From contig JBNARI010000002.1 in the NCBI GenBank assembly GCA_049718765.1, forward strand, positions 10,052-74,051: a stretch of DNA of 64,000 nt, written 5' to 3'. Source of the DNA: Bacillota bacterium (lineage in GTDB: Bacteria > Bacillota > Sulfobacillia > DUMF01). Below are positions 22,800-51,984 of the stretch, one piece after another (positions within the stretch are counted from its first letter, which is position 1; every line of letters starts with the position of its first letter). The notes beneath the pieces are model-generated. The model was given only the letters and a program-made list of their open reading frames with translations. It was not told the origin of the DNA and did not search any database. The position numbers and the translations under genes were made by a program.

Positions 22800-23058
22800 C
22801 CGATCTCAACCTCTCCAGGACTTCCAGATCACTCACCAGATCTTTCTCGTCGTAGTCCAGGTCAACCCCGAAGTCGGCAAGGGCCTCCAAAAAGGAGGAG
22901 TAGCTGGTACCCGAAAGCTCCACCGCTTTGCCCAGGGATATCTTCCTCTCGGCATAGAGGGAAACGGCAAGCCTCTTCATTATTTCCCTGGCTGGGTCGC
23001 GACGGAGCCCCAAGGTCTCTCGGATTTCGTCTGGTATGCGCAGGATCACTTCCGTCAC
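22786..23058 (-). CDS. UPF0175 family antitoxin-like protein
   Basis: 90 aa. 'LAVSLYAERKISLGKAVELSGTSYSSFLEAL' matches the UPF0175 pattern. Genetically coupled to DUF3368. Confidence 0.55.
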   Translation of the reverse strand: MTEVILRIPDEIRETLGLRRDPAREIMKRLAVSLYAERKISLGKAVELSGTSYSSFLEALADFGVDLDYDEKDLVSDLEVLERLRSDGGK

Positions 23059-25110: not shown

Positions 25111-25148
25111 AGCCCTCCCCCCTTCCTCGCAACTCTACTGGAGCTCCC

Positions 25149-28019: not shown

Positions 28020-28110
28020 ATTGGATCACCACCCCTTCGCTAGCAGAATAGACAGATAGACAGACTGGGCGGGGCCGGACGTCAACCCGCCCCGCCCCTG
28101 CTGCCGGCGA

Positions 28111-29333: not shown

Positions 29334-29462
29334 ACTTCACCTCCTTTCCACGAGCAAACTGCAAAGCCGGCACACGTCTCACACCAGCTTCACCTCCTTC
29401 CCAAAATAACGGGACAAAAAAGAAAAGGGCCGCCCGCCGAAGGCGGCCCGTCCGAAAACACG

Positions 29463-30683: not shown

Positions 30684-31601
30684 CCCCTGTCCAGAGTTTT
30701 CTCAGGCGTTACCGCTAGAGATCCAACACAACACCCGTTGCAGTCCTGCGCCTCACGCCACCAACCGTGACGGCACCTCCGGCCAGCAGCACCAGACTGC
30801 AGCCCCCATGAACGCCGCTTCGCTGAGACGCCACGGCGTGTTGCACTTGCACCACCCATCAGCCACTTGGTGTGGCAGTCCGGCACCTGCCGCCATCGCG
30901 GATTCCGGCCACCACCCGTGGGCGCTTCGCTCCCGTCAGCAACAGAGCGTGGCAGTCCAATGCATGTCGCCATGCCGCAGCACCACCGCCAGCGGCAGCA
31001 GCACCACCTGGCAGCACCGTGCCGCTCCGCCAGCCTGGACAGCAGCCACGCCTAGCAGGCAGCCGCCCACGGTGCCATCAGGACCTCGCCCCAAACGCGC
31101 CGCAGCTTCCGCAGCCAGTACACCTCCCTGACAACCTCCAACTGCCCCGATCGCTTCCGACACAAGCCGCCCTGTAGTGCCTGTCTCCCCGCCCCGGAAA
31201 ACAACCTTTGCAGCCCCGTCAATAAGCGCGAAAAATATAACGTCCGCCCCATCGGTGGCAGCCCAAAGGTCCAACGGGTTGTGGACACTCCAAGCACTGC
31301 AACCCGCATTTTCCTTCCCATCAGCCTCGTCCCGGCCGTGACCGACACAGCCTCGGCTCACAGGCCCGGTCACCCCCTTTTTTACACATAAGTGGTCCGG
31401 TTGGCATGCGGATCGTGCCTGCACGCCAAAAGCGTCGTTCGCCTCTTGCTGAGGCTAGAGCAGGGACACCATCACTGCTCCCGCAGCGTACCACCGCAGG
31501 CAGTGACTCCCCGCCCAGGTCGGCAGAACGCTCGCAAAGCAGCCCAAATGAGTCTGGTACCCGGTTCTTCCCTCAGGTAAGAGCCTGGCAAGCTGACATC
31601 G

Positions 31602-37143: not shown

Positions 37144-37848
37144 TTAGTCGAGCAATTTTTGAGGGGATAAATCGGGCTCTTCCGCATAAAAATCGTCGCC
37201 CATGCTCCCAGTTTTGGTATCGTCTGGCATCAGGGGATCAAAGCCACTCAGGCGGGCCATCTGCCTCCGCAGGGCCAGGGCCCACCGGAACAGGTGCCTG
37301 GGTTGCTCGGTGACCAGCACATCGGCTCCCGGCGTTCCGCTCAGCCTCATCTGCAGGAGCCACTTAACCTCTCCATCTGTGCGCACCACCCCTGCATCCT
37401 CCAGTGCGTCCAGAAGGGACTTCGCCCCGTAGTTGTCCAGGTCACGGCTCTTGGGCCCCAGTACGGCCACAACAACACCTGGCCTCTCCAGAGGCGCGTA
37501 CCCGAACCTCCTGCCGCCGAAGGCCTTTGCAACTGCAGTGTGCCACCAGCCTTTCATCAACCGCCAGATTTCGCGGTCCACGGAGCTGTCAAACTTCAGG
37601 TACGCATTGAGCGAAGGTGGGAGATCTCCCCGTATGCAGAGCAGTACAGCTCTCGGCGGCTGAGACCGGTACCAGGCTTGCACCCGTATGTCCACCTCCC
37701 AGTCGTCCACAGCAGGCACGCCACGCATGAGCCGCCTCATGCTCTGCGTCACTGCCAGGTAGCACTTGAGATGCATCCGCCGCATCTCTTCCAGGTCGCT
37801 CAGGCAGCTCATTTTCTCCCAAAGGCAAGCTTCCTGCCCAGGTCCCAT
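37144..37848 (-). CDS. RusA-like Holliday junction resolvase with N-terminal extension
   Basis: Start set at 'MGPGQEA' because the upstream part of the track ORF is an Arg/Trp read-through. The RusA-like core is 'VVAVLGPKSRDLDNYGAKSLLDALEDAGVVRTDGEV'. Confidence 0.45.
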   Translation of the reverse strand: MGPGQEACLWEKMSCLSDLEEMRRMHLKCYLAVTQSMRRLMRGVPAVDDWEVDIRVQAWYRSQPPRAVLLCIRGDLPPSLNAYLKFDSSVDREIWRLMKGWWHTAVAKAFGGRRFGYAPLERPGVVVAVLGPKSRDLDNYGAKSLLDALEDAGVVRTDGEVKWLLQMRLSGTPGADVLVTEQPRHLFRWALALRRQMARLSGFDPLMPDDTKTGSMGDDFYAEEPDLSPQKLLD

Positions 37849-38443: not shown

Positions 38444-39481
38444 CTACGCGGTGGCAGTGGCCTGCGCGGCCGCCTCCCGCCTCGCTGCGAGGTTCAGGAA
38501 CCCTCTGGCGTTCGCGAACTGCGCGTCCGGCAAAAGCTGCACCGGGAACTGCCGCCTGCTGAGAGCCCCCTCCAAGACCTTCGCTCCTCCTCCTGCCAGA
38601 AACAGCACCCTCAGGTACTTGCCCCTGTCCTTCCACGTCATCCTGAGCCTCTCAGCGACTGCCTCTGCCAGCACCTCGGCGCTCTCTTCGCAGAGCTCAC
38701 CGAGCCTATATTCCCTGCCGCGGAACCACAGCTTCCCGCGCTCCATCGCCTGCTCCACCTGCAGCACGTCCACCACGTCACCCACGATCTCCTGGACCCT
38801 GTGCTGCACCGCACTGACCACGTCGCTCATCGCCATGTTCACCGTGCCGCACCCCGACTCGATTATGTCGAGGCTGCCCAAGTCCACGAGCAGGAAGTCC
38901 GTGGTCTTGTACCCGCAGTCCACCACCGCCGCAAGTCCTCCCTCCCGCAGCAGGGACTGGCCCAGGTCGCTTGCACGCCCCCGCTCGTCGAGCACTGCGC
39001 TGTAGAACGCGCCCACAGCCTGCGGCACCACCGTCACCCTGTCGAAATACACCTTCCGCCTTCCTGCGCCGCACACCTCCACGTCCGCCCTCATGGTGCT
39101 GAGCATCTGCAACAGCTCGCCCTTCTGGGTCTTGTACAGCTCGAACGGCAGCCCAGCGGCCACGTGCAGGGCACCCGGCCGGTCGTGTGCGAGCAGGACC
39201 GTAGCAGCCCCGTAAAGCACAGCGGTGAAGTGGTGACAGACCCTGCTCTCGTCGAACGCCCTGGTGGCGTTCCAGGACTCCGCCACCGCCAGCTTCCCCA
39301 CGAAGTACCTCCTGCCGTCCACCACGACCTCGTACTCCCTACGTCCCTGGCTTATGCCGAACGTATCAACAACCCGGTGCTCATACCCGTCACCTACCAC
39401 GGAGGGCATGAGCAATGTCCTTCCGGTGTCGCTCAGTCCCTTAACGTAACCGTGCCCCAGGTCAATCGCTATCCTCACCAC
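38444..39481 (-). CDS. ParM/StbA-like actin-family plasmid segregation ATPase
   Basis: N-terminal phosphate-1 motif 'IAIDLGHGYVKG', adenosine motif 'LAAVVDCGYKTTDF', C-terminal 'VLFLAGGGAK'. 345 aa. Confidence 0.6.
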   Translation of the reverse strand: MVRIAIDLGHGYVKGLSDTGRTLLMPSVVGDGYEHRVVDTFGISQGRREYEVVVDGRRYFVGKLAVAESWNATRAFDESRVCHHFTAVLYGAATVLLAHDRPGALHVAAGLPFELYKTQKGELLQMLSTMRADVEVCGAGRRKVYFDRVTVVPQAVGAFYSAVLDERGRASDLGQSLLREGGLAAVVDCGYKTTDFLLVDLGSLDIIESGCGTVNMAMSDVVSAVQHRVQEIVGDVVDVLQVEQAMERGKLWFRGREYRLGELCEESAEVLAEAVAERLRMTWKDRGKYLRVLFLAGGGAKVLEGALSRRQFPVQLLPDAQFANARGFLNLAARREAAAQATATA

Positions 39482-41924: not shown

Positions 41925-42413
41925 TTACTGCTCCAGCCGGAAAGTCGCAGCTGAAGAAAGAGCCAGCCTTCCAGAAGCATCGCCCAGCCTGCTCCCACGC
42001 AGCACGGTAAGAAGTCCAGGCACGTACACTGGCTGGTGGTATGTGACTGTCACGGTAACGTACCCACCGGAAACCTCGACGGATACGTCCCTGTTGGGGT
42101 CGAAGCTCTGCCAGAACTCCGCATCGGACACCGGCAGGGCCGCCCGCAGCAGGGATCGCGCTCGATCTACTGCGTCCGACACGCTCTTGTTCACGGCGTA
42201 GTCTCTCGCCGCTTCACGCGCAGCTGTGGCAGTGGCTATCTTGGTGTTCACCGCAATCCCAAAGGTCATCACTCCAAACAGCAGCACAAGCACAATCGGC
42301 AGGACCAGTGCCAATTCCACCATCGCTTGCCCCCGCTGGCTTCCGCCCCTCCATCGCCACACTTTCAGCACACACCTCCCAGCAGTGCCAGCACGGCGCC
42401 GGCTGTGAGCCAC
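41925..42413 (-). CDS. TadE/TadG-like pseudopilin
   Basis: 'RGQAMVELALVLPIVLVLLFGVMTFG' N-terminal TadE signature. Confidence 0.55.
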   Translation of the reverse strand: MAHSRRRAGTAGRCVLKVWRWRGGSQRGQAMVELALVLPIVLVLLFGVMTFGIAVNTKIATATAAREAARDYAVNKSVSDAVDRARSLLRAALPVSDAEFWQSFDPNRDVSVEVSGGYVTVTVTYHQPVYVPGLLTVLRGSRLGDASGRLALSSAATFRLEQ

Positions 42414-42862
42414 GGTGCGTGCGGGATCGCCCCGTACGACGGCAGGCGCACGTCAGCACCCAGAAGCCTCAGCACGGACCACCGCGCCACCGCAGCCAGA
42501 CACTCCGCCAGCCTGCCGCGCCTGGCAAGAACGACCAACGAGACTGCGCCCTCTATCAGTGCCGTATAGAGCACGCAGCGCAGGATGAACTGCGTGCCCC
42601 CTATGGCACCAAAAGCCGCGGTCATCTTAACGTCGCCTCCGCCGTAGCCCCCCAGAAGCGCTACCGCGAGCGACAGACCAAAGCCGAGCGCGAGGCCCCC
42701 GAGGCCGTCCAAAAACCCCGGCCACCCCTTCGAGAGTCCATTGAGCAGCAGCCCCGCCGCCAAAGCCGGCAACGTCACCCTGTCGTATATCAGCCCAAAC
42801 CTCAGGTCCGTGTACGAACAGACCGTCCCGACCACTCCAAGGCACACGAGCTTTGCAAGCAC
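42365..42862 (-). CDS. cpaA: Prepilin peptidase CpaA/TadV (A24 family)
   Basis: 165 aa, multi-TM, with a catalytic Asp region 'GGGDVKM'. Confidence 0.7.
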   Translation of the reverse strand: MLAKLVCLGVVGTVCSYTDLRFGLIYDRVTLPALAAGLLLNGLSKGWPGFLDGLGGLALGFGLSLAVALLGGYGGGDVKMTAAFGAIGGTQFILRCVLYTALIEGAVSLVVLARRGRLAECLAAVARWSVLRLLGADVRLPSYGAIPHAPWLTAGAVLALLGGVC

Positions 42863-42925
42863 GACCCCTCCCTCCCAAGAAAAAGTAGCCCCCGGCTGCG
42901 TGGTCGGGGGCTACGAAGTGCGGGC

Positions 42926-43090
42926 TTATGGGCCAAAGCCGTTGAGCACGTTCTGCAGCTTTGCAGTGAGGTTTGTGCCGAGAGCCTGCAGCACTGCAAC
43001 AGCAACCAGGGCAATTAGCATCAGCACGAACGTGTACTCAACAAGCCCCTGGCCCGCCTGGCTTCTCAAAGTATGCACAACACCTCCCAT
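42926..43090 (-). CDS. flp: Flp-family type IVb pilin (second copy; not in the supplied ORF track)
   Basis: 54-aa ORF 'MGGVVHTLRSQAGQGLVEYTFVLMLIALVAVAVLQALGTNLTAKLQNVLNGFGP'. Flp processing motif G/QGLVEY followed by a hydrophobic helix. ATG at 43090, TAA at 42926-42928. Paralogous to the adjacent pilin. Confidence 0.65.
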   Translation of the reverse strand: MGGVVHTLRSQAGQGLVEYTFVLMLIALVAVAVLQALGTNLTAKLQNVLNGFGP

Positions 43091-43105
43091 GCGGTCCACA
43101 CATCC

Positions 43106-43270
43106 TCACTGCAGCGCGTTGGACACGTTGGTGAGCTTCTGCACTATCTTCTGGCCGACTCCCGTGAGTACGGATATGGCCACTACCGCGATCAAGGCCA
43201 GAATGAGCGCGTACTCCGTCAGGCTCTGGCCCTCCTGACCCCTCAGCAACCTCTTCACCATCCGCAGCAT
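43106..43270 (-). CDS. flp: Flp-family type IVb pilin
   Basis: 'MLRMVKRLLRGQEGQSLTEYALILALIAVVAISVLTGVGQKIVQKLTNVSNALQ', with G/QSLTEY motif. Start chosen at the ATG at 43270 with RBS AAGGAGGG 8 nt upstream. Confidence 0.7.
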   Translation of the reverse strand: MLRMVKRLLRGQEGQSLTEYALILALIAVVAISVLTGVGQKIVQKLTNVSNALQ

Positions 43271-43296
43271 TACCAATTCCCTCCTTTGGCAGAGTT

Positions 43297-44184
43297 TCAA
43301 AAGCCGAGGTCCCGCAGCATGTTCATAAGAGCAGGCCCCATCATGATCACCAGCATCGGCACAAAGATCAGGAAAATCACCGGGAACAGCATCTTCACAG
43401 TTGCCTTCTGCACCACCTCCTGCGCCCTGTTCCGGCGCTTGTTTCTCATCTCCGCCGCGAACGACCGCAGCACCTTCGCGACCGGTGTCCCGTGTTCTTC
43501 CGCCTGCACCAGCGCCGTCACAAGCTCGCTCAGCTCCTGCACGCCGTTGCGCTCGCTCACCTCCTTCAGCGCTTCCTTGCGGGGTCTACCCAGCCCTGTT
43601 TCCCTGAAAGCACGCCCAAATTCAGATGCCAGCAGGGACGACTGGTAGGACGCCACCCTTTCAACCGCCTGCTGCAGTGACAGTCCCGCCTCGCACGCGA
43701 CTGCGAGCATGTCTGTGAAGTTCAGGAGCTCCTTCTCGATCTGTGCCTTCCGGCGCCTCGCCTTCTCGTTCAGCCAGACGTCCGGTGCGACGAACCCCAG
43801 CATGGCAAAAAGCGCTCCTATTACCACAGCCCTGGCCCCGGAGCCCACCATCCCGAGCAGGCTGAACACGCCGAACATGACGGCCCCGAACGCGATCTTT
43901 GCCGCGAAGAACTCCTCAGGAGTGTACTGCCCCGACATGCCCGCGTGTGCCAGCCTCTGCTTCAGCTCCTCCTCGGCCTGAACGGCCAGAAACCTGCGCG
44001 CAACCCGTACCAGAAACCGGGGCCGCTTTGTGTCCTTCAACTCGGATACTGCTGCCCGCACTCCCTCTTGGGCGCCGATCACCTCCCCGAGGCGGCCCCA
44101 CGCGGCTTCGGAACGCACTTGCCTCCACACCAGAAGCATGAGCACTGCACCGAACGCCAGAAACCCAACCCAAAGCAGCTCCAC
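43297..44184 (-). CDS. tadC: TadC-like (GspF-domain) pilus assembly membrane protein
   Basis: 295 aa. A GspF-like domain ('AGLSLQQAVERVASY...') is flanked by TM helices. Confidence 0.65.
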   Translation of the reverse strand: MELLWVGFLAFGAVLMLLVWRQVRSEAAWGRLGEVIGAQEGVRAAVSELKDTKRPRFLVRVARRFLAVQAEEELKQRLAHAGMSGQYTPEEFFAAKIAFGAVMFGVFSLLGMVGSGARAVVIGALFAMLGFVAPDVWLNEKARRRKAQIEKELLNFTDMLAVACEAGLSLQQAVERVASYQSSLLASEFGRAFRETGLGRPRKEALKEVSERNGVQELSELVTALVQAEEHGTPVAKVLRSFAAEMRNKRRNRAQEVVQKATVKMLFPVIFLIFVPMLVIMMGPALMNMLRDLGF

Positions 44185-44190
44185 TCTTCT

Positions 44191-44484
44191 TTACACCTCC
44201 TGCTGGGCCGCCCAGCCCTTACCGTCCACCCACACCCACACTTCGCGCGAGGTGCAGGGCGGGCACGGCACACGGCTCAAATTCCTCTTCCCCTCCTCCA
44301 GTGCGGGATGCACACCCCCGCGCTTTACCCGCTTCACCTGGATCAGCCGCACGCAACTCCTGCCCACCGCGACAACATCAAACGGCGAATGACTGCCCGC
44401 AGTCCTCGCGACAGTATATCCTTCCGCTTCGAGCAGCCTCACCGCCTTCAGTTCCCCGAGATACCCGCGCCGGTAATTCACCAT
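44191..44484 (-). CDS. Hjc-type (archaeal-type) Holliday junction resolvase-like PD-(D/E)xK nuclease
   Basis: 'YRRGYLGELKAVRLLEAEGYTVARTAGS...FDVVAV...RLIQVK' parallels the Hjc 'YRKG.. [21 protein letters not shown]...DLVA...IEVK' core. Confidence 0.55.
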   Translation of the reverse strand: MVNYRRGYLGELKAVRLLEAEGYTVARTAGSHSPFDVVAVGRSCVRLIQVKRVKRGGVHPALEEGKRNLSRVPCPPCTSREVWVWVDGKGWAAQQEV

Positions 44485-44762
44485 TTCTTCTCAGCCGCCA
44501 GCGCCGCAGCTTCTTTTTGCCCCACAAACCTTGCCACAAGCTCGTGCATGGCGGGCGGATGGCAGACCACGCAGAGCATGGCCCCGTACCGTGACACCCA
44601 CCAGTTCGACCCGCCACACACCCTGCACGTCCCCTGCGGCGTCAGCGACATCGGCAGTACAACGTCCACTTGATCCACGGTGCGGGATTCCAGCGGCTCC
44701 GCCTGGCAGGAAGAAAACCGGTCTGCGGCCCAGGCCTGCCTCACACTGTGCGTGCGCTTCAA
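44478..44762 (-). CDS. Small Cys-rich hypothetical protein (zinc ribbon-like)
   Basis: 'CRVCGGSNWWVSRYGAMLCVVCHPP' has a CxxC...CxxC pattern. Confidence 0.3.
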   Translation of the reverse strand: MKRTHSVRQAWAADRFSSCQAEPLESRTVDQVDVVLPMSLTPQGTCRVCGGSNWWVSRYGAMLCVVCHPPAMHELVARFVGQKEAAALAAEKKW

Positions 44763-44859
44763 TCACAACACCCTCCCCTTGAACCCTCCAACTCTTCTGC
44801 GTCCTCTACTGGTTGAGAAGACTGAGTGGGGGCAGAACCGCCCCCCCCTCGATCAGCCT

Positions 44860-45249
44860 TCAGATCGCCTCGAGCAGGTTGCGGACTGCTTGCTTCAGCT
44901 CGGCGCGCAGCTGCTCCGCGGACACAGGGTCGCCAAGCTCCCCGACACCTCTCGCGGTGTCTGCACCGCCCCGCAGGAACCCACATGCCATCCTTGTGAA
45001 ACGGCGGTTCGCCATTTTGAGCACTTCGATGTTGCCGAGGTAGTACATCCCGCCCTCGGCATACACCCTGTGGCCCAGGTGCCGCAGGCTCTTCGCGAGC
45101 CTCTGCACCTTGATCCTATTCTCAAGAGAGTCTGTCCCAAAGATTTCCTGTGCTATCTGGGCCGTCGGCACCCCTGCAGGATGAGCCTTCTCCAGTATGT
45201 CAAGCATCCGCTCGGCATCCGTGCCCCTTCCGTCCTTCAGCCGTTTCAC
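44860..45249 (-). CDS. Hypothetical protein
   Basis: 129-aa ORF with globular composition. No family recognised. Confidence 0.3.
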   Translation of the reverse strand: MKRLKDGRGTDAERMLDILEKAHPAGVPTAQIAQEIFGTDSLENRIKVQRLAKSLRHLGHRVYAEGGMYYLGNIEVLKMANRRFTRMACGFLRGGADTARGVGELGDPVSAEQLRAELKQAVRNLLEAI

Positions 45250-46766
45250 CTCTCATCACCCCCTTTATCAGGCCCACCTTTTACGAGCTGCAGGAACGGC
45301 TTCTTCGGTTCCAGCAATTCCCACGTCTTTACGATCCAGCTCCCGGCAGCGTCCAGGGCCGCCTTGAAGCTGTTGTAGGTGAGGGCGTCCTCGACAACTT
45401 CTGCCAGCTGTTCGATGTCGTCCCCCGGAGTGCCGCGCACCCGCGCCGCAGCCCTGAGCCGGTCCGCGTGCTTGGTCCCGATCTCCGTGAGCGCCGCCAC
45501 CAGCATGACCGCGCCGTCAGTCGCCTTCTCCAACAGCGCCCGGAACGCAGTGTGCTCTTTGGACCACTGGGGCGGCTTGGGCCGCAACTTCTCCTTCTCC
45601 AGCTCCCTGCTCGCCTGGTCGAGCATCCGCTGGAGCTGGCTCGCCTGCTCCTCCAGCATCTTGACTCTTGCTTCCTTCTGCGCCTTCTCTTCAGCCAGGG
45701 CCAGGAGCCGCGACTGCAGCAGCTCCTTGTCCCTCAGCAGCTCCGCAGCCTGCTTCCTCGCAGCCTCCAGCTCCGCTTCGACAGCGGGATCCGTCCTGTA
45801 CACGACCTTCTCCACCACTTTCTCGAATGGCCTCTGCTCGAGCTCCTTCAGCCTCACCCGGAGCTGTTCCACCTCTTCGGTCCGCTGCCTGAGCTTGGCC
45901 TGGAGGTCGCAAAGCGCTTCCTGGAGCCTCTCCTCATACTCCCGGCCCACCTTTTCCGCGACTTCCGCCTCCAGCGAGGACAGCGCGTCCCGCAGCCCGG
46001 CAAGCTCCCGGCAGAGGGAGTCCCTTTCTTCCTCGAGCCTCGCCAGCTGCTCAGACAGGGCTTCCTTCTCTGCCCGCGCAGACTCGAGCTCCCGCCTCAG
46101 CTCCTGCGCCTGCTTCACAGAAAGCCCGCAGACGCCGGACTCGCCCAACACTTCCAGCAGCCGCCTCTGCTCCTCGGGCGGCAGGAAGGCCAGGGAGTAG
46201 GCTGCGGTCTGGGAGAGCTTCCCCTGGGAGACAAGTTGCTGGAGCTCGGGGATGAGGTCGTTGAGCTTGAGGAGACGCAGAGTAGTCCTGTAGTCCTCCC
46301 CAATGGCCTCAGCTACATCGGCAAGGGTCTTGACCTGACGGACAAAATGTCCTTCAGGTGTGCCAGGTTTTGCTAAGCTACCTTCCCGCACTCCCCAGTA
46401 CCGCTTCAGAAACTCCGCCCTCTTCGCCTTCTTCATCGGGTCCCGGCAGAAGCGCCTCTCCTCGTTGTCCGCGATCAGCAGGTACTCCAGGTACTCCTCG
46501 TCGCCCTCGACGATCACCACGGGCACCTTCTCCAATCCCAGCTCCTTCGCAATTTCCAGCCGCACATGGCCCGCGATCACCCTGTAGTCCGGCGTGACCT
46601 TCAGCGGGTCCCGGATACCTTCAGCCGCAATGCTCCGCTTCAGCGCCTCCCTCTCTTCCGCAGTCGGCGGCGAAAAGTACTCCGTGTTTTTCGGATGCGG
46701 CTTCAGAAGCGAAACGGGCACCTCGTTGTACACAAACCAGCACCTCCCTATCAAGCCCGCTTGCAA
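45246..46766 (-). CDS. ParB/Srx-like nuclease-domain protein with long C-terminal coiled coil
   Basis: N-terminal ParB-like box ('KVTPDYRVIAGHVRLEIAKELGLEKVPVVIV') plus an HTH region, then about 250 aa of heptad-rich Glu/Leu/Arg/Ala coiled coil. Confidence 0.6.
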   Translation of the reverse strand: MQAGLIGRCWFVYNEVPVSLLKPHPKNTEYFSPPTAEEREALKRSIAAEGIRDPLKVTPDYRVIAGHVRLEIAKELGLEKVPVVIVEGDEEYLEYLLIADNEERRFCRDPMKKAKRAEFLKRYWGVREGSLAKPGTPEGHFVRQVKTLADVAEAIGEDYRTTLRLLKLNDLIPELQQLVSQGKLSQTAAYSLAFLPPEEQRRLLEVLGESGVCGLSVKQAQELRRELESARAEKEALSEQLARLEEERDSLCRELAGLRDALSSLEAEVAEKVGREYEERLQEALCDLQAKLRQRTEEVEQLRVRLKELEQRPFEKVVEKVVYRTDPAVEAELEAARKQAAELLRDKELLQSRLLALAEEKAQKEARVKMLEEQASQLQRMLDQASRELEKEKLRPKPPQWSKEHTAFRALLEKATDGAVMLVAALTEIGTKHADRLRAAARVRGTPGDDIEQLAEVVEDALTYNSFKAALDAAGSWIVKTWELLEPKKPFLQLVKGGPDKGGDER

Positions 46767-46878
46767 ACGCGGACAGTTGCTGCAGTAGCCATGCCGCCGC
46801 AGGGGTTCAAAAACGTCATCAGCCCGCAGCGCGACCGCGGGCTGAACCTGCCTGCTTCAACCTGCAAAACTTATCTGC

Positions 46879-47790
46879 CTAGTCGGCCAGAGCCTGTACC
46901 ATCCTCCTCATCACCCACCAGCCCAGGGCGATCGTCACGTAGCACCCGGCCAGCATGGCCCTGCCCGTTGCCGTCTGGGTCATCGGTCTGAAGTAGGCCG
47001 GGTTCTGGGCGTACAGGAAAAGCGTTACCACGATCGGAGCCGCAGACACGACTGCTGCAGACAGCCTCGCCTGGCTCGTGTGCGCGAGCAGTGCCCGCTT
47101 CAACGCCCTCCGTTCGGACACCATCTGCCCGATCAGGTCGTACACTTCCGCAATGTTTCCGCCCGTCCGGGACAGGACCTGGGTCGCCACAATGAACACG
47201 TCCACCTCGGGGCACTCGATGCGCTTCTTCAACTCCAGCACCGCGTCCTCGGGGGGCAGGCCGAACCTCATTGCCTGCACCACGCGGGCAAACTCTTCCG
47301 TTACAGGAGCGGGCGCGTCCGCGGCGGCCCTCTCCAGAGCCTGCCCCAGGCTCGCCCCCGCCCGCAGTGACGAGCTGAGCACGGAAAGCGCAGCGTCGAA
47401 CCGGGCCGCAAAAGCCTCCGCCCTCCGCTTTTTCAACGCGCGCACGTAGTACCGGGGCAGCACCGCACCGGCCACAAGGCCGGCCGCCGCAAACCACACG
47501 CTCCCGGTCACGGCCAGGAGTGCCGTGAACCCGGCCGCGCTCCCCAGCACCGCCACCAGCAGCAGCGTCCGCGCCGTGACCGAAAGCCCTGCCTTCGCTG
47601 CTTCTTCCTCCAGGCGCGAAAGCCAGGGTACTTTCTCTGCCCGGGTACCGGCTCCAAGCCCTGCTTCAGCCACCACGTCTTTCTCGGGCTCACCCCTGAT
47701 CACCTTCTCAACTGCAGGTGGCTGCTTCCTCCTCAGAGAAAGCACAAAAAACAGCACAGAGGCAAACGTGAACAGCGCTGCGCCGCTCAT
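46879..47790 (-). CDS. tadB: TadB-like (GspF-domain) pilus assembly membrane protein
   Basis: Start set at the ATG at 47790 (ATGA overlap with the cpaF stop). The 137 upstream codons of the track ORF are a Gly/Arg read-through. TM-GspF-TM architecture. Confidence 0.6.
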   Translation of the reverse strand: MSGAALFTFASVLFFVLSLRRKQPPAVEKVIRGEPEKDVVAEAGLGAGTRAEKVPWLSRLEEEAAKAGLSVTARTLLLVAVLGSAAGFTALLAVTGSVWFAAAGLVAGAVLPRYYVRALKKRRAEAFAARFDAALSVLSSSLRAGASLGQALERAAADAPAPVTEEFARVVQAMRFGLPPEDAVLELKKRIECPEVDVFIVATQVLSRTGGNIAEVYDLIGQMVSERRALKRALLAHTSQARLSAAVVSAAPIVVTLFLYAQNPAYFRPMTQTATGRAMLAGCYVTIALGWWVMRRMVQALAD

Positions 47791-49112
47791 CCGCTGCCAC
47801 CGCCCCTCTCTTTTGCCAGCACTCTTGGCACCGGCACCCCGTACCACTCGAACTTCCACATGAAGCGCGGCTCGTGCACGGACCACACCAGCCTTCCTTC
47901 CCTTACGTCGTACCTGGCAAGGTCCCTCACCACCACGCTCTCCCCATCCGTTTCCACTGGCTCCGAGACCGCCACCACCTTCCTGGACCCGTCCCTGAAC
48001 CTGGCCGCCTGCACGAAAAGCTCCACCGACGCCACAATCTGCTGCAGCACCGCCCTCCGGGGGAGGTTCCCTCCCGCCTGCAGCACCATCACCTCCAGCC
48101 GGCTTATCGCGTCCTGGGGCGAGTTGGCATGGATCGTGGTCAGCGACCCCTCGTGGCCGGTGTTCATCGCTTGCAGCATGTCCAGCGCTTCGCCGCCCCT
48201 GCACTCGCCGACCACAATCCGGTCCGGCCTCATCCGCAGCGCATTTCTCACCAGGTCCCGCATGGCTATTTCGCCCCTGCCCTCTATGTTGGGGGGTCTG
48301 GTCTCGAGCCTCACCACGTGCTCCTGCTGGAGCTGCAGCTCCACCGTGTCCTCTATCGTGACGACCCTCTCCCCCGCCGGTATGAACGACGACAGCACGT
48401 TCAGCAGCGTGGTCTTGCCGGAACCCGTACCTCCCAGCACGACCACGTTCACCTTCGCCTCCACGCAGCGCTGCAGGAACTCCAGAGTTGCCTCGTCAAG
48501 AGTGCCAAGCCGCAGCAGGTCCCCGGCGGTGAGCCTCTTACCGAACTTCCGTATCGTGATGCACGCCCCGTCAACGGCCACAGGCGGTACTGCGGCGTTC
48601 ACCCTGCTCCCGTCCGGGAGCCTGGCATCCACCATCGGGCTCGACTGGTCTATCCGCCGCCCCACAGGTCCCACTATCTTCTGGATCACCGTGCGCACGT
48701 GTTCCTCGTCCCGGAACACAATGTTTTCAGCCCTGTGGATCCTGCCGTTCTTCTCGTAGTACACCCTGTCGTACCGGTTCACCATCACTTCTGTGACCTC
48801 GGGATCGTCGATCAGGGGCTGTATGGGACCGTAGCCCAGCACGTCCTGAAGGATCCTTTCCACCACAGCCGCCCTCGCGTGGCGCTGGAGATCTGCCCCC
48901 TCCCGGTCCGCTATCGCGGCCACCAGCCTGCGAAGCTTCTCGTCGTCCTGCAGCACGCCCGAGTCCAGCCTGGCGTACAGCGCCCGCCTCACCCGCTCCT
49001 CGACTTCGGCCGCGCGCTCGCGCCCCACCGCAGCGGCAGCCTCCGCCCGCGCCCTCGGCGCGCTGGTAGCCTCCTTCTCTTCCATCCGCCTGCGAATCAG
49101 TGACACACCCAA
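47787..49112 (-). CDS. cpaF: CpaF/TadA pilus assembly ATPase
   Basis: Walker A 'VVLGGTGSGKTTLLNVL', Asp box 'VVTIEDTVELQL', His box 'GHEGSLTTIHAN'. Confidence 0.85.
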   Translation of the reverse strand: MGVSLIRRRMEEKEATSAPRARAEAAAAVGRERAAEVEERVRRALYARLDSGVLQDDEKLRRLVAAIADREGADLQRHARAAVVERILQDVLGYGPIQPLIDDPEVTEVMVNRYDRVYYEKNGRIHRAENIVFRDEEHVRTVIQKIVGPVGRRIDQSSPMVDARLPDGSRVNAAVPPVAVDGACITIRKFGKRLTAGDLLRLGTLDEATLEFLQRCVEAKVNVVVLGGTGSGKTTLLNVLSSFIPAGERVVTIEDTVELQLQQEHVVRLETRPPNIEGRGEIAMRDLVRNALRMRPDRIVVGECRGGEALDMLQAMNTGHEGSLTTIHANSPQDAISRLEVMVLQAGGNLPRRAVLQQIVASVELFVQAARFRDGSRKVVAVSEPVETDGESVVVRDLARYDVREGRLVWSVHEPRFMWKFEWYGVPVPRVLAKERGGGSG

Positions 49113-50327
49113 CTACAGACCCCTCCTCTTCCACCGGAAAAGCCTTGAGATCAGCCCGCCCCTGTGAGACGCGATCACGTCCCCGAGAGCAGGTGTCACC
49201 CTTGCAGCAAGCCCAAGCACGGCATTCGTGAACGGGCAGCTCCTTTCGAGCACCGGGAGCCGGCCCTGGTTCTGCAGTGCCGGCACGCTCTCGTCCTCAG
49301 GTATCTGCGCGACCAGCTCCCACGGCAGCCACTCCTTAACCTGCGCCACCGAGAACGGCGGCTTCCTTGGGACCCGGTTCAGCACCACCCGGATCTTCCT
49401 CTCGTCGGTGTGCGTGAGGGATATGTCCCTGGGCGCCCTGTACACGTCCCTCAGCGTCTGCACGTCCATCGTCGCCACCACAAGCACCGAGGTGGCGGAC
49501 TCCAGCCCCACCACTGTGGCGTCCTCGAAGTCGGGGCCGCAGTCCACCACCACCACGTCGGCGTTGCGTCTCATGTACTCGAGCACATCGGTCGCAAGCG
49601 CCTCGTCCAGCAAATCTTTGTTTATGGCCCTCCTTATGCCCGGCACCACGTGGATCGTGCCTTTCTTGCCCACGGGGTATGCTGCGACCCTGGACTCGAA
49701 GCGATCGTCCTTGGCCTCCGCCCAGGCCTCCACGGAAAGCGGAGTGCTGATCTGCAGCAGTGCGGTCACCCTGGCGTGGGGGTCGAAGTCCACAACCACC
49801 ACACGCAGATCGGGCATGTACTTTGCGTACACTGCAGCCAGGTTGCACACGAGAGTCGTCTTGCCCACGCCGCCCTTGGGGCTGTAAACGGTTATCACCT
49901 GCTGGCGCACCACCCTGCTGCGCGGCCCCGGGGGCTCCTCCTCACCGGGACCACTCCATGGCGGCTGTAGCTGCTCGTCGCCGCCAAGTTCATCGAGCAC
50001 TTCTTCCAGTTCCAGAGCGTCGAGGGGCCTGCGCACTACGCCCTTGAGCCCCTTCTTGGCGGCCCTCCTGTAAAGGTCAATCCCCGCGTCCCCTGATGCA
50101 AGCAGCACGGGCACCCCACCCAGCACGTGCACGGCCTCAGCACCCATGTCAAGGCTGTCCACCAGTACAGCGTCCGCACCACCGACCCTGCCCCTCAGCT
50201 GCGCGGGGCTGTCCGCCACCGCCAGGACACGCACACCCCGGCCCAGACTCTCTACTTCCCTGACCAGGTCCTCTGCGCCAATAACGCACAACCTCAACAC
50301 CTTACCGCCCTCCTCCCGGCTGGACAA
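49113..50327 (-). CDS. cpaE: CpaE/TadZ-like protein (receiver-like N-domain plus ParA/MinD ATPase)
   Basis: Deviant Walker A 'VYSPKGGVGKTTLVCNLA' and 'VVVVDCGPDF'. Confidence 0.75.
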   Translation of the reverse strand: MSSREEGGKVLRLCVIGAEDLVREVESLGRGVRVLAVADSPAQLRGRVGGADAVLVDSLDMGAEAVHVLGGVPVLLASGDAGIDLYRRAAKKGLKGVVRRPLDALELEEVLDELGGDEQLQPPWSGPGEEEPPGPRSRVVRQQVITVYSPKGGVGKTTLVCNLAAVYAKYMPDLRVVVVDFDPHARVTALLQISTPLSVEAWAEAKDDRFESRVAAYPVGKKGTIHVVPGIRRAINKDLLDEALATDVLEYMRRNADVVVVDCGPDFEDATVVGLESATSVLVVATMDVQTLRDVYRAPRDISLTHTDERKIRVVLNRVPRKPPFSVAQVKEWLPWELVAQIPEDESVPALQNQGRLPVLERSCPFTNAVLGLAARVTPALGDVIASHRGGLISRLFRWKRRGL

Positions 50328-51030
50328 AGCCGTACCTCTCCAGCCACTGCCGCCCGGTCACGCCCTGCGTCTGAGCCGCAGACTCGTCCGTGTTCAGCGG
50401 GTTCAGCGCGAACCGGATGGAACCCGACGTCAGCGCGAACGCTATGTCCTCTATCTGCTGCGGCGTCAGGGCAACTACCAGTACGCTCCCTTTGCCCAAC
50501 CTGAGCTCAGTGTTCTGCTTCACGTCCAGCACCAGCACGTTCCTCGCGACCACCTTCCCTACACCCATGCCGGTGCCCCCCGCTTCCACCTTCACGGATG
50601 CCACGATGTCCACCCTGTCACCTGGCTTGATGTCACCACCCACCCCGGTCTCGGCGTCGTACGACAGCGAAAACGCCCTCAGATCCGGCCTACCCAGAGC
50701 AGTCAACCTCGCAGTCATGACCGACTTGCCAGGCGTCACATCCGCCACACGGGCCATGCGGACCACTTCGCCTGCATACACCCTGTCCCGCAGGTACTGA
50801 CCCACGATGTCTTCCACCTTCCGCACCGCGTCCTGCGGCACGGAAATCACCGGGACTTCCTGCACCTTAACATCGTCTCTCGTCACCAGCTGGTACGCTT
50901 CGAGGTCCCGCACAGCAACCACCACCGGCTCCGTCTCGTTCACGCGCTTCAAAAACTGCACCACCAGCAGCGCAGCACACAGCGCCATCACGACCGCCAG
51001 GATAAGAAAAACCGTGCCCTGCTTCTTCAA
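50302..51030 (-). CDS. cpaB: CpaB/RcpC-like Flp pilus assembly protein
   Basis: N-terminal TM anchor, then SAF-like and beta domains ('VVAVRDLEAYQLVTRDDV', 'VLVLDV'). Confidence 0.65.
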   Translation of the reverse strand: MKKQGTVFLILAVVMALCAALLVVQFLKRVNETEPVVVAVRDLEAYQLVTRDDVKVQEVPVISVPQDAVRKVEDIVGQYLRDRVYAGEVVRMARVADVTPGKSVMTARLTALGRPDLRAFSLSYDAETGVGGDIKPGDRVDIVASVKVEAGGTGMGVGKVVARNVLVLDVKQNTELRLGKGSVLVVALTPQQIEDIAFALTSGSIRFALNPLNTDESAAQTQGVTGRQWLERYGFVQPGGGR

Positions 51031-51092
51031 CTATCTCGTCCCCCCCTCACGCAGATCAGAAAATCATCAGGGGCGGCACTCAATCGCCCCCC

Positions 51093-51506
51093 TCAGTCAA
51101 GATCCCCCGGTCCGTTGTGCACCTGTACACTGTAGACCTTCCAGCCGTCCTCAAACTTCATCAGGTCGAGCACGCACACGTGCTGACCGATGCACTTTGA
51201 CGGTGTTGCCTGCTCCTCCCAGGTCACCGCGCACACCACCGACCCCCTGGTGCCGTCCCTGTTGGTGCGCAGCATTTTCAGCCTGAGTTCATGCACCTCC
51301 CACTTCACGCCCCTGAGCACCGGCAGCTTCCTGCTGAGGTCGGCATGCGCGTCTCCAGATGTCAGGTTAAGCGCCCTCTCAAAGTCACCGGAATAGTACG
51401 CCTGCACGTACTCCCTTGCCACGTCGAGCATTTCGGTGGCCGCCTTCCCGGGACTGCACCCGGAAACCAGCACGCAAGCAACCACCGCCAGGCATATGAG
51501 CCGCAC
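51093..51506 (-). CDS. Lipoprotein (SnoaL/NTF2-like, DUF4878-like)
   Basis: Lipobox 'LVSGCS' after a GTG start at 51506. Paralogous to the next gene. Confidence 0.45.
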   Translation of the reverse strand: MRLICLAVVACVLVSGCSPGKAATEMLDVAREYVQAYYSGDFERALNLTSGDAHADLSRKLPVLRGVKWEVHELRLKMLRTNRDGTRGSVVCAVTWEEQATPSKCIGQHVCVLDLMKFEDGWKVYSVQVHNGPGDLD

Positions 51507-51552
51507 CTGCCTCTCACCCCTCTTTCCCCCTCCCTCTGAAAGGTCGACTGCT

Positions 51553-51984
51553 TCAGGACTTCTCGACCCTCCGCGCCGTGGCAAACGAATATATCTTCCA
51601 CTGCCCGGCAACCCTGGCGAACTTCAGTACAGCCACCATGTCCACAGTCGTGGTCCCCGCCCCGGGCACCGTCTGCTCAAACACGTAAGCTGCCACCACG
51701 TCCCCGCGTGTCCGGTCGCGGGAGACCCAGTCGCACTTCAGCTCCAGCCCGGAGACCTTATTCTGCACATTCATCGCCCTGAGAGCGGGCACCGCAGCCC
51801 TCATATCCGCAAGGGCCTGCCCCGTCAGAAAAGAGCACGCCGTGTCAAAGTCGCGGCTGTAGAAGGCGTTGAGGAACCGAGTCCCCAGATCCACCAGGTC
51901 CCGCTCGGTCGTGTAGCTCCTTGAGCACCCCGCAAGCGTCATTACGGTCATGAGGGCTAGAAGGAGCGCACCCTGCTTCCTCAT
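51553..51984 (-). CDS. Lipoprotein (SnoaL/NTF2-like, DUF4878-like)
   Basis: 'MRKQGALLLALMTVMTLAGCS' lipobox. 'FLNAFYSRDFDTACSFLTG' parallels 'YVQAYYSGDFERALNLTSG' in the paralogue. ATGA overlap with the upstream gene. Confidence 0.5.
   Translation of the reverse strand: MRKQGALLLALMTVMTLAGCSRSYTTERDLVDLGTRFLNAFYSRDFDTACSFLTGQALADMRAAVPALRAMNVQNKVSGLELKCDWVSRDRTRGDVVAAYVFEQTVPGAGTTTVDMVAVLKFARVAGQWKIYSFATARRVEKS

What the first reader, a model, noticed from the sequence alone, without database searches (positions are those of the whole stretch)
44191..46766. A DNA-processing island (ParB-nuclease-domain/coiled-coil protein, Zn-ribbon protein, Hjc-type resolvase) is inserted between tadB and tadC; a RusA-like resolvase lies elsewhere on the element
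Four genes interrupt the tadB/tadC pair: a 506-aa ParB/Srx-like protein with a roughly 250-aa coiled coil, a 129-aa hypothetical, a small CxxC protein and an archaeal-type Hjc-like resolvase. The element also encodes a RusA-like resolvase (37144-37848). Two structurally unrelated junction resolvases on one element are uncommon and suggest recombination-dependent replication or processing of transfer intermediates. The ParB-coiled-coil fusion could be a partition or DNA-compaction factor working with the CpaE/ParA-like ATPases. Alternatively it could be a nuclease-based defence or anti-defence gene.
Basis: partly seen in the sequence, partly recalled or inferred. Interest (0 to 1): 0.55.

Follow-up and report, generated by a model that had tools for sequence, protein, structure and literature searches.

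The report
DNA-handling genes inside a pilus operon
A mobile DNA element integrated in a heat-loving bacterium carries two small gene pairs (a ParB-type DNA-binding protein with a partner, and a zinc-finger protein with a DNA-junction-cutting enzyme) wedged into its pilus operon; every part belongs to a known protein kind, so this is a modest curiosity.

Summary
Four same-strand genes separate tadB (46879-47790) from tadC (43297-44184). In 28 of 29 other Tad loci of the same class, tadB lies directly upstream of tadC, and none of the 29 holds these genes.

The "island" is two separate, translationally coupled pairs.

Pair 1 is a ParB_N + HTH + roughly 180-aa helical-arm protein (ParBcc, probably 495 aa) with a 129-aa winged-helix partner (h129). 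All 12 related ParBcc copies that keep the C-terminal domain are followed by an h129 homologue. None of the 17 shorter copies is.

Pair 2 is a CxxC...CxxCH zinc-ribbon protein with a 97-aa minimal Hjc-fold nuclease. The nuclease's best PDB matches are archaeal Hjc. Its active site reads E-D-Q-x-K, not E-D-E-x-K. The same pair follows a PrimPol gene in the neighbouring integrated element.

The RusA-like gene (37144-37848) is a long-form relative that keeps the catalytic Asp/Lys residues but misses the Pfam RusA model.

Most likely reading: pair 1 is a KorB/KorA- or BisD/BisC-like clamp and partner, and pair 2 is a replication-module resolvase cassette. None of these functions was tested. Each part is a variant of a known kind, so interest is moderate.

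The parts
46879..47790 (-). tadB (T2SSF-family platform protein, 303 aa); its ATG overlaps the CpaF stop by 4 nt
   Evidence: Pfam T2SSF 4.4e-17; start and gaps
46819..46845 (-). 12-bp-stem GC-rich hairpin with a weak T tract, in the 145-nt spacer after tadB; unique in the window
45246..46766 (-). ParBcc: ParB_N (about 12-110) + ParB-type HTH (about 145-215) + two helical arms (215-312, 333-395) + C-terminal domain (about 400-506). Likely start GTG 46733 (495 aa). Motifs G66-H-V-R69 (GxxR) and D100-N-E-E-R104 (ENxxR with E to D)
44860..45249 (-). h129: winged-helix domain (11-71) plus C-terminal helical hairpin (74-128); start overlaps the ParBcc stop by 4 nt; conserved partner of full-length ParBcc
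44478..44762 (-). Zn94: zinc-ribbon protein with invariant C46, C49, C64, C67, H68; its C-terminal 57 aa are 51% identical to the TubC_N + Zn-ribbon protein of the neighbouring PrimPol element
44191..44484 (-). Hjc97: minimal (alpha-beta-beta-beta-alpha-beta-beta) PD-(D/E)XK nuclease of the Hjc fold with E11, D36, Q49, K51; start overlaps the Zn94 stop by 7 nt; stop lies 6 nt before tadC
43297..44184 (-). tadC (T2SSF-family platform protein, 295 aa); GGAGGTG ribosome-binding site lies inside the end of Hjc97
   Evidence: Pfam T2SSF 1.7e-21; sequence
37144..37848 (-). Long-form RusA-like protein (234 aa; core about 60-185) with N81, D136, D138, N139, K143, D158 conserved; lies between the ParM-like gene and the coupling-protein gene
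38444..39481 (-). ParM/Alp-type actin-like segregation ATPase (context: the element has a type II partition gene)
   Evidence: Pfam ALP_N 7e-25, MreB-like_C 1e-26
49113..50327 (-). CpaE/TadZ-type ParA/MinD-fold ATPase of the Tad operon (context)
   Evidence: Pfam CbiA 5e-17, AAA_31

Best explanation
The window holds a roughly 60-kb high-GC conjugative element. It carries VirB4, a coupling protein, PrgI-like and pilin-like genes, an M23 hydrolase and a full Tad/Flp pilus operon. It is integrated next to a second, PrimPol-type element at tRNA-Lys.

Between tadB and tadC lie two independent, translationally coupled gene pairs.

Pair 1 (ParBcc + h129) is this element family's own ParB-fold DNA clamp with a dedicated winged-helix partner. 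Inferred mechanism, by analogy with KorB-KorA of RK2 and BisD-BisC of ICEclc: ParBcc binds element DNA through its ParB-type HTH, closes through its nucleotide-binding N-terminal domain (GxxR and [E/D]NxxR are retained), and works with h129 through its C-terminal domain. The outcome would be control of element gene expression and/or holding and organising the excised element's DNA.

Pair 2 (Zn94 + Hjc97) is a replication-module cassette of the kind found after PrimPol or DNA-polymerase genes in other mobile elements and phages. Hjc97 is inferred to cut branched DNA (Holliday junctions or reversed forks) that arises when the element replicates after excision or entry. The long-form RusA-like protein next to the ParM gene is a second, unrelated enzyme of the same inferred task.

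Because tadC starts 6 nt after Hjc97 and has its ribosome-binding site inside it, these genes are probably transcribed together with the pilus genes. Whether that position has a function or is an accident of module shuffling is open.

Shown here: gene identities, folds, conserved residues, pairings and synteny. Inferred: all activities, all binding, and co-expression.
For: Element context. GC is 62-67% against a genome mean of 56%. Integrases and tRNA-Lys/Met lie at L047.

ParBcc.
- Its profile hits Spo0J 1vz0 at 2.6e-14 across the N-terminal domain and HTH.
- G66, R69, N101 and R104/R105 are invariant in 23 sequences.
- BisD of ICEclc has G92NTR95 and E136NELR140, and its R95A mutant loses nucleotide binding (PMC12409273: abstract and section 18 read).
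- KorB is a CTPase clamp locked by the small protein KorA (PMC11790492: abstract read).

Pairing of ParBcc with h129.
- Their genes overlap by 4 nt.
- 12 of 12 related ParBcc copies whose match reaches the C-terminal end of the profile are followed by an h129 homologue: 11 within about 100 nt and 1 at 1.4 kb.
- 0 of 17 copies ending at profile position 440 or earlier have one downstream. One of those 17 (L013) has only 350 nt of sequence left downstream.
- h129 folds as a winged helix plus helical hairpin (pLDDT 91.1; Z 9.5-8 to BirA, NiaR and ScpB winged helices).

Hjc97.
- Profile to 1gef at 8.2e-9; Foldseek top 12 rows are all archaeal Hjc/Hje, best 2.3e-5 with TMq 0.67.
- E11, D36, Q49 and K51 are invariant in 27 sequences. 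Five relatives found without a Q-biased pattern read EDQK (4) or EDQR (1).
- Phage homologues sit beside DNA Pol III alpha and Cas4/PD-(D/E)XK nuclease genes.

Zn94-Hjc97 pair. It recurs as PrimPol -> TubC_N + Zn ribbon -> Hjc-like in L047 and in L054/L055.

RusA-like.

Other resolvases. A RecU-like gene lies 2 kb after ParBcc-h129 in L006. The host has its own RuvC.
Against: - No activity, binding or expression was measured.
- ParBcc barely passes the Pfam cut-offs as a single sequence. Its GxxR box reads GHVR rather than GERR, and the ParB-fold survey reports that nucleotide specificity cannot be predicted from sequence (10.1101/2025.10.10.680097: abstract and section headings read, section 7 read in full).
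- No parS-like repeated palindrome was found in 17-64 kb of the window.
- Hjc97 has Q where Hjc has its catalytic E46, and it is 20-45 residues shorter than solved Hjc proteins. It may therefore cut differently, or only bind.
- Close Hjc97 relatives occur in very varied contexts. The Zn partner was seen at only 3 further places on other DNA (L047, and L054/L055, which look like the same sequence).
- The loci counted are not independent: three come from one Desulfovirgula genome and two from one contig.
- A 12-bp-stem hairpin after tadB could be a terminator, which would argue against simple read-through from the pilus promoter.
Confidence: 0.5

Rival explanations
1. ParBcc is the centromere-binding protein of a ParABS-type partition system. 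It works with one of the element's ParA/MinD-fold ATPases (CpaE at 49113-50327 or the 432-aa protein at 51981-53279) to segregate the excised, replicating element.
For: ParBcc has ParB_N + HTH homology to Spo0J. Two ParA-fold ATPases lie within 7 kb. In L014 a 381-aa ORF directly follows ParBcc and precedes CpaB; by eye it looks TadZ-like, but tblastn with CpaE or the 432-aa protein gave no hit there.
Against: The element already has a ParM-type actin gene. Both ParA-fold proteins are of the TadZ/CpaE type and sit inside pilus or transfer operons. ParBcc is not adjacent to a ParA gene in the window or in most loci. Related elements often carry two ParBcc paralogues. No repeated palindrome was found. 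The conserved partner is a winged-helix protein, not an ATPase.
Confidence: 0.15
2. The position between tadB and tadC has no functional meaning. It is an accident of recombinational shuffling of two-gene modules in a mosaic element, tolerated because transcription still reaches tadC.
For: The ParBcc-h129 pair sits at different places in relatives. 0 of 29 other Tad loci show the arrangement. The spacers of 145 and 97 nt bound each pair. GC3 of the four genes (0.75-0.81) matches the flanking Tad genes, so this is not a recent foreign insert.
Against: ParBcc relatives lie inside or next to Tad operons in three further loci (L006, L007, L014), so the association with the pilus genes recurs even though the exact slot differs. 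The tight coupling of Hjc97 to tadC (6 nt, shared ribosome-binding site) ties their expression together.
Confidence: 0.45
3. The genes are a nuclease-based defence or anti-defence cargo. ParB_N acts as a nuclease or NTPase effector, and Hjc97 acts as a nuclease against incoming or host DNA.
For: ParB_N folds are frequent on mobile elements and are fused to methyltransferases or HNH domains (phrog_498; 10.1101/2025.10.10.680097, section 7). Small PD-(D/E)XK nucleases occur in many defence systems.
Against: PADLOC gave only a ParB_N match to a methyltransferase model and coiled-coil matches to SMC-like proteins for ParBcc, and nothing for h129, Zn94, Hjc97 or the RusA-like protein. ParBcc keeps a ParB-type HTH and a conserved DNA-binding partner. 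Phage homologues of Hjc97 sit in replication modules.
Confidence: 0.08
4. Hjc97 is not a resolvase. With Q in place of the catalytic Glu and a shortened fold, it is an inactive or differently specialised structure-specific DNA binder, perhaps targeted by Zn94.
For: Q49 aligns with E46 of P. furiosus Hjc. The protein is 97 aa against 120-143 aa for solved Hjc proteins. The single sequence is below the Pfam/NCBIfam cut-offs.
Against: E11, D36, Q49, K51 and the RTAGS loop are invariant across 27 sequences down to 39% identity, which points to selection on an active site. The PD-(D/E)XK review documents working active sites in which the Glu has moved to another element (PMC3424549, section 10 read). 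E81 is nearly invariant and could be such a residue, but this was not tested.
Confidence: 0.2

Closest known systems
KorB-KorA of plasmid RK2 and BisD-BisC of ICEclc (ParB-fold CTP clamps with a small partner on conjugative elements)
   Same: ParBcc has a ParB N-terminal nucleotide-binding fold with GxxR and [E/D]NxxR, followed by a ParB-type HTH. It is encoded on a conjugative element, is much longer than a chromosomal ParB (BisD is 550 aa), has an all-helical C-terminal part, and has a small adjacent partner protein.
   Different: There is no detectable sequence relationship beyond the ParB core. The linker is a roughly 180-aa two-arm helical region rather than the unstructured linker described for BisD. 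The partner is a winged-helix plus helical hairpin, neither KorA-like nor FlhC-like. Nucleotide binding, DNA sites and partner binding are untested.
Chromosomal ParB/Spo0J and Noc
   Same: The profile match to Spo0J 1vz0 (2.6e-14) covers the N-terminal and HTH domains. There are weaker matches to Noc.
   Different: Box II reads GHVR rather than GERR. No PF23552-type C-terminal dimerisation domain was detected, there is no adjacent ParA, and no parS was found. ParBcc also has an extra coiled-coil region and a distinct C-terminal domain.
Archaeal Holliday junction resolvase Hjc (PF01870; 1gef, 1hh1, 2wcw) and Hje (1ob8)
   Same: Best sequence-profile and best fold matches. Hjc97 shares the alpha-beta-beta-beta-alpha-beta core, the conserved E...RxAGS...D...xK pattern, and small size.
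   Different: Q replaces the catalytic Glu of ExK throughout the clade. Hjc97 is 97 aa against 120-143 aa. It occurs in bacteria and phages, is rare in genomes (3 of 210 in the class), and is here coupled to a Zn-ribbon protein. No biochemistry exists.
RusA (PF05866; E. coli 1q8r)
   Same: The PPSxN and RDLDNxxKxxLDAL...D motifs are present. The Asp/Asp/Lys/Asp residues align with D70, D72, K76 and D91.
   Different: The protein is 234 aa, with about 55 extra N-terminal and about 50 extra C-terminal residues. The Pfam model does not detect it. It has only 23 relatives at E<=1e-3 among 1.8 billion representatives.

Membership tests
ParB/Spo0J family (PF02195 + PF17762) | Scores above the curated Pfam cut-offs for ParB_N and HTH_ParB | tested here: met
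   26.6 against 26.3 bits and 24.5 against 22.6 bits. The margin is narrow, but the family profile hits Spo0J 1vz0 at 2.6e-14.
ParB/Spo0J family (PF02195 + PF17762) | Nucleotide-pocket motifs GxxR (box II) and ENxxR (box III) | tested here: met
   G66-H-V-R69 and D100-N101-E-E-R104. G66, R69, N101 and R104 are invariant in 23 sequences. E is replaced by D, and the inner residues differ from GERR.
ParB/Spo0J family (PF02195 + PF17762) | Adjacent ParA partner gene and parS sites | tested here: not met
   The neighbours are TadB and h129. No repeated palindrome was found in 17-64 kb of the window.
ParB/Spo0J family (PF02195 + PF17762) | CTP binding and hydrolysis, clamp closure | not testable with these tools
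   Needs purified protein.
KorB-KorA / BisD-BisC type clamp-and-partner regulators | ParB-fold protein encoded with a small partner protein on a conjugative element | tested here: met
   4-nt gene overlap. 12 of 12 full-length relatives are followed by an h129 homologue, against 0 of 17 shorter ones.
KorB-KorA / BisD-BisC type clamp-and-partner regulators | Physical binding of the partner and control of element promoters | not testable with these tools
   Needs pull-down, ChIP and reporter assays.
Archaeal Hjc (PF01870 / NF040854) | Score above the curated cut-off | tested here: not met
   Pfam 19.0 against 21.1 bits; NCBIfam 18.1 against 70 bits. 10 of the 36 listed homologues carry a precomputed PF01870 hit.
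Archaeal Hjc (PF01870 / NF040854) | Hjc fold | tested here: met
   AF2 pLDDT 91.6. The Foldseek top 12 rows are all Hjc/Hje; 1gef_B scores E 2.3e-5, TMq 0.67, 29% identity. Profile to 1gef at 8.2e-9.
Archaeal Hjc (PF01870 / NF040854) | Catalytic tetrad E-D-E-x-K (E9, D33, E46, K48 in 1gef numbering, read from the alignment; their catalytic role is recalled) | tested here: not met
   E11, D36 and K51 are present, but Q49 stands for the second Glu. Q is invariant in 27 sequences and present in 5 of 5 relatives found independently of a Q-containing pattern.
Archaeal Hjc (PF01870 / NF040854) | Dimeric, symmetric cleavage of four-way junctions | not testable with these tools
   Needs enzyme assays.
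RusA (PF05866) | Score above the curated cut-off | tested here: not met
   No PF05866 hit at E<=10 for the whole protein or its core. A true RusA elsewhere in the genome scores 72 bits.
RusA (PF05866) | Homology to RusA by transitive or profile search | tested here: met
   phmmer hits at 8e-5 to 9e-4 (whole-library E-values) to 121-144-aa proteins. 7 of 22 aligned members match PF05866. The alignment profile hits 1q8r at 4.2e-16 over chain residues 6-116; that profile contains those RusA members.
RusA (PF05866) | Catalytic Asp70, Asp72, Lys76, Asp91 (roles recalled; D70 is marked by the D70N sequence of 2h8c) | tested here: met
   D136, D138, K143 and D158 align with them. D136, K143 and D158 are invariant and D138 is at least 90% conserved in 22 sequences.

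The most novel reading that the evidence does not exclude
ParBcc + h129 could be a new class of ParB-fold machine. In this reading, two long helical arms around a conserved hinge-like segment (P313-FEKVVEKVVYRTD-P327) replace the flexible ParB linker, and the dimer forms a long-armed, SMC-like ring. The winged-helix/hairpin partner h129 has ScpB among its weak fold matches and co-occurs strictly with the ParBcc C-terminal domain. It would close or load this ring on element DNA. The ring would compact or hand the excised element over to the transfer apparatus, which would explain the recurrent placement in or beside the Tad pilus operon.
Probability: 0.1. Interest if true: 0.7.

Novelty: new variant of a known kind. 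Interest (0 to 1): 0.4.

Why it matters
ParB-fold clamps with small partners have recently been shown to control transfer and gene expression in Gram-negative conjugative elements (KorB-KorA, BisD-BisC). ParBcc + h129 is a widespread family in thermophilic Bacillota elements: 199 relatives at E<=1e-3. I found no description of it in the searches. It could be the Gram-positive counterpart, and its strict co-occurrence with a partner gives a testable pairing.

The Q-x-K clade of minimal Hjc-fold nucleases in bacteria and phages has no biochemical characterisation that I could find. It offers a small, simple test of whether Gln can replace the catalytic Glu.

None of this overturns current understanding. 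The gene order itself is probably a local curiosity.

Tried and rejected
- Complex prediction of ParBcc (A1) with h129 (A3) returned no answer (score 0.00, mark 0.32). This is neither support nor evidence against binding.
- The look-up of sequencing runs listed no run and no RNA holder for 43200-47900, so expression could not be examined.
- The search for related loci with the single ParBcc protein found nothing in genome contigs; the alignment query did.
- The word-based search for Zn94 found only itself. Its relatives were found by reading the neighbours of the Hjc paralogues instead.
- The h129 profile against PDB sequences gave only spurious LRP6 rows. Foldseek gave no row at E<=1e-3. The Atlas gave only unnamed, mostly viral clusters.
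- The single RusA-like sequence against PDB sequences gave nothing.
- The search for a parS-like site found a single hairpin palindrome after tadB and no repeated palindromes of 12-16 bp.
- PADLOC gave nothing specific.
- The weak Pfam rows HicA_toxin (Hjc97), Rv0078B antitoxin (RusA-like N-terminus) and HTH_69 (h129) were set aside as sub-threshold.
- The EDQK count of 63 of 80 metagenome relatives is biased, because one search pattern contained the Q. I rely instead.
- Literature searches for Tad pili on Gram-positive conjugative elements and for Hjc-like phage resolvases found no direct description. The library lacks most subscription journals, and the supplements of the bioRxiv ParB-fold survey, which may list coiled-coil fusions, were not readable.


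Full report
**What is there.** Minus-strand ORFs at 45246-46766, 44860-45249, 44478-44762 and 44191-44484 lie between two T2SSF-family genes. Those genes are tadB (46879-47790; Pfam T2SSF 4.4e-17) and tadC (43297-44184; 1.7e-21).

The spacings are CpaF -4- TadB -145- ParBcc -4- h129 -97- Zn94 -7- Hjc97 +6- TadC -4- Flp1. The four genes therefore fall into two translationally coupled pairs, set off by spacers of 145 and 97 nt. The first spacer holds a unique 12-bp-stem hairpin with a weak T tract (46819-46845). tadC's GGAGGTG ribosome-binding site lies inside the end of Hjc97.

**Setting.** The window is G000:C2:10052-74051 of a 1.99-Mb, 55-contig genome with 56% GC. From about 12-17 kb of the window to about 10 kb past its end, GC is 59-69%.

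This stretch encodes:
- a coupling protein, VirB4-like ATPase, PrgI-like protein, T4SS-pilin-like protein and M23 hydrolase;
- an AAA ATPase and a ParM-type actin;
- SLH/FN3 surface proteins;
- a complete Tad set: CpaB, CpaE, CpaF, TadB, TadC, two Flp pilins, prepilin peptidase, TadE and a Tad-domain protein.

Beyond the window lie a LexA-like repressor and a tyrosine integrase. Next comes a second small element with a PrimPol gene, a TubC_N + Zn-ribbon protein, a 114-aa Hjc-like protein and an integrase. tRNA-Lys and tRNA-Met follow.

So this is an integrated conjugative element lying in tandem with a PrimPol element. My repeat scan saw the inverted repeats there.

**How unusual is the interruption?** I took the 29 best TadC matches from other genomes of the same class. 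In 28 of them a TadB homologue lies directly upstream, with an estimated gap of -1 to 74 nt. In one (L159) no upstream T2SSF hit was found within 1497 nt. None of the 29 holds a hit to ParBcc, h129, Zn94 or Hjc97. The 2.7-kb interruption is therefore real and, in this sample, unique.

**ParBcc.**
- The single sequence just passes the Pfam cut-offs for ParB_N (26.6 against 26.3 bits) and HTH_ParB (24.5 against 22.6).
- phrog_4715 matches residues 14-394 at 6e-25.
- A 23-sequence family profile hits T. thermophilus Spo0J (1vz0) at 2.6e-14 over residues 23-222, that is, the N-terminal domain plus HTH.
- Invariant residues include G66, H67, R69, N101, R104 and R105. The GxxR box reads GHVR and the ENxxR box reads DNEER.
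- For comparison, BisD of ICEclc has GNTR and ENELR, and loses nucleotide binding in R95A (PMC12409273, abstract and section 18).
- The likely start is GTG 46733, behind GGGAGGTG. It matches the relatives' N-termini and the Atlas record, and gives 495 aa.
- Residues 215-312 and 333-395 are Pro-free, rich in E/R/K/Q/L, and match SMC-type coiled-coil models. They flank a conserved segment, P313-FEKVVEKVVYRTD-P327. The helical region is thus about 180 aa, not about 250.
- The family has 199 members at E<=1e-3 in the word-based search. They come from Ammonifex, Desulforudis, Desulfovirgula, Moorella, Thermacetogeniaceae, Alicyclobacillus and others.

**h129 and its link to ParBcc.** h129 models confidently (pLDDT 91.1) as a winged helix (11-71) plus a two-helix hairpin (74-128). 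Its fold matches are ordinary winged-helix DNA-binding domains: Z 9.5 to 8 for BirA, NiaR, AfsR and ScpB N-terminal domains. The Foldseek rows, with ScpB and Sso10a among them, are all above E 1e-3.

I ran profile searches over the 45 genome loci plus one plasmid locus.
- All 12 ParBcc copies whose match reaches the end of the profile (position 471 or later of 475) are followed by an h129 homologue. Eleven lie within about 100 nt and one lies 1.4 kb away (L010).
- None of the 17 copies whose match ends at position 440 or earlier has one downstream. One of these (L013) has only 350 nt left.
- A truncated copy in L015 is followed by a partial h129.
- These loci are not independent: three are from one Desulfovirgula genome and two from one contig.

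Even so, the pattern points to a link between the ParBcc C-terminal domain and h129.

The pair's position varies. It lies between VirB4 and the h637 homologue in L005. In L007, ParBcc is followed by a 281-aa protein instead, between CpaF and TadB. In L014 it lies upstream of CpaB, and in L008, L013 and L015 it lies near ParM.

**Zn94 and Hjc97.** Hjc97 has 36 relatives in the word-based search. One of them is a 57%-identical paralogue on the same contig, L047:8028-8372.
- In a 27-sequence alignment, E11, R27, A29, S31, D36, Q49, K51 and R52 are invariant.
- The profile's best PDB hits are P. furiosus Hjc (1gef, 8.2e-9), ST1444 and S. solfataricus Hjc. Family residues E11, D36, Q49 and K51 align with 1gef E9, D33, E46 and K48.
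- The AF2 model (pLDDT 91.6; alpha-beta-beta-beta-alpha-beta-beta) has archaeal Hjc/Hje as its top 12 Foldseek rows (1gef_B: E 2.3e-5, TMq 0.67, 29% identity).
- Q at the Glu position is a clade mark. Besides the 27 aligned sequences, two phage homologues and three genome hits found without any Q-containing pattern read EDQK (4) or EDQR (1). The 63-of-80 count from metagenome loci is biased by the search pattern.
- The family is rare in genomes: 3 of 210 in the class, G000 included.
- Its close relatives sit in varied mobile-element contexts. In Geobacillus phage GBK1 and Rossellomorea phage phiT1, the homologue lies beside DNA Pol III alpha and a PD-(D/E)XK/Cas4 nuclease.

Zn94 found no relative by word search. 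However, its C-terminal 57 residues are 51% identical (E 2e-19) to the protein that precedes the paralogue in the PrimPol element. C46, C49, C64, C67 and H68 are invariant. The order PrimPol -> TubC_N + Zn ribbon -> Hjc-like recurs in metagenome loci L054/L055.

Zn94-Hjc97 thus looks like a replication-module cassette whose Zn protein has lost the TubC_N-like N-terminus.

**RusA-like protein.** The Pfam RusA model gives nothing even at E<=10, although a true RusA on contig C3 scores 72 bits. The support is indirect:
- phrog_34 matched only 30 residues (8e-6).
- A pairwise BLAST to the genome's own RusA aligns the RDLDN...D motif (E 0.007).
- phmmer over 1.8 billion representatives found 23 proteins, among them 121-144-aa ones.
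- 7 of 22 aligned members match PF05866.
- N81, D136, N139, K143 and D158 are invariant, and D138 nearly so.
- The alignment's profile hits E. coli RusA 1q8r at 4.2e-16 over residues 6-116, placing D136, D138, K143 and D158 on D70, D72, K76 and D91. That profile contains RusA members, so the step that counts is the phmmer link.

It is a long-form, divergent RusA relative with the catalytic residues intact.

**Reading.** The element does carry two unrelated resolvase folds, and the host has its own RuvC (no RecU). A related element has a RecU-like gene 2 kb after its ParBcc-h129 pair, and another has UvrD plus a PD-(D/E)XK_1 nuclease upstream. These elements seem to recruit junction- or branch-processing nucleases of interchangeable families, as phages do.

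For ParBcc-h129, the closest working models are KorB-KorA (a CTPase sliding clamp locked by a small DNA-bound partner; PMC11790492, abstract) and BisD-BisC (a ParB-like CTP clamp with a helical C-terminal domain that activates ICE transfer promoters with BisC; PMC12409273). A survey of the ParB fold reports many orphan, mobile-element-linked homologues with varied nucleotide specificity. It does not mention a coiled-coil fusion in the text I read (10.1101/2025.10.10.680097: abstract and section 7; supplements not readable).

A classical partition role is less likely, and a defence role found no support. Whether the slot between tadB and tadC matters is undecided. ParBcc relatives recur in or beside Tad operons (L006, L007, L014), but at different slots.

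**Limits.** No activity, binding or expression was tested. The complex prediction gave no answer and no sequencing run was listed.

Noticed in passing
L047:2973-11755 (= 66973-75755 on the window's scale, just past its end): A second, small integrated element lies in tandem between the conjugative element's integrase and tRNA-Lys/tRNA-Met. It carries an 867-aa PrimPol protein, a TubC_N + Zn-ribbon protein, a 114-aa Hjc-like paralogue and its own tyrosine integrase.
   Followed up: partly
window 41925-53279; L007, L014, L006: A complete Tad/Flp pilus operon is embedded in a VirB4/coupling-protein conjugative element, and the same combination recurs in related elements of Ammonifex, Peptococcaceae and Desulforudis genomes. 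My literature searches found no description of Tad pili as part of Gram-positive conjugative elements.
   Followed up: partly
window 17009-17690 and 22308-23058: Two likely toxin-antitoxin pairs lie near the left end of the island: a Fic/DOC protein with an 83-aa upstream ORF, and a UPF0175 antitoxin-like protein with a DUF3368 protein.
   Followed up: no
window 56630-57946: A 438-aa AAA ATPase in the transfer region matches IetA and TRIP13 models of PADLOC (1.9e-31). This is probably a generic AAA match rather than a defence system.
   Followed up: no
window 23827-32948: A run of large surface proteins (a 956-aa FN3 protein and three SLH-domain proteins) sits inside the high-GC island. They are possible adhesins of the element.
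   Followed up: no
L006:7910-10055: In a Desulforudis genome, a RecU-like protein and a NERD nuclease follow the ParBcc-h129 pair. A different resolvase family occupies a similar neighbourhood there.
   Followed up: no
L003, L006, L009, L015, L024: Related elements often carry two ParBcc paralogues in one locus. Some copies are split into two frames around profile positions 236-265, or are truncated.
   Followed up: partly
G000:C3:91861-92172 (L133): A canonical RusA (72 bits to PF05866) lies elsewhere in the genome, probably in another mobile element.
   Followed up: no
L014:8677-9765: A 362-aa ORF lies just upstream of a ParBcc gene whose N-terminus looks disturbed. By eye it resembles a TnpB-type transposon protein (C-terminal CxxC...CxxC); it was not scanned against any library.
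   Followed up: no
window 61735-61830: My inverted-repeat scan found two 48-nt arms (73% complementary) inside the 316-aa HTH gene.
   Followed up: no
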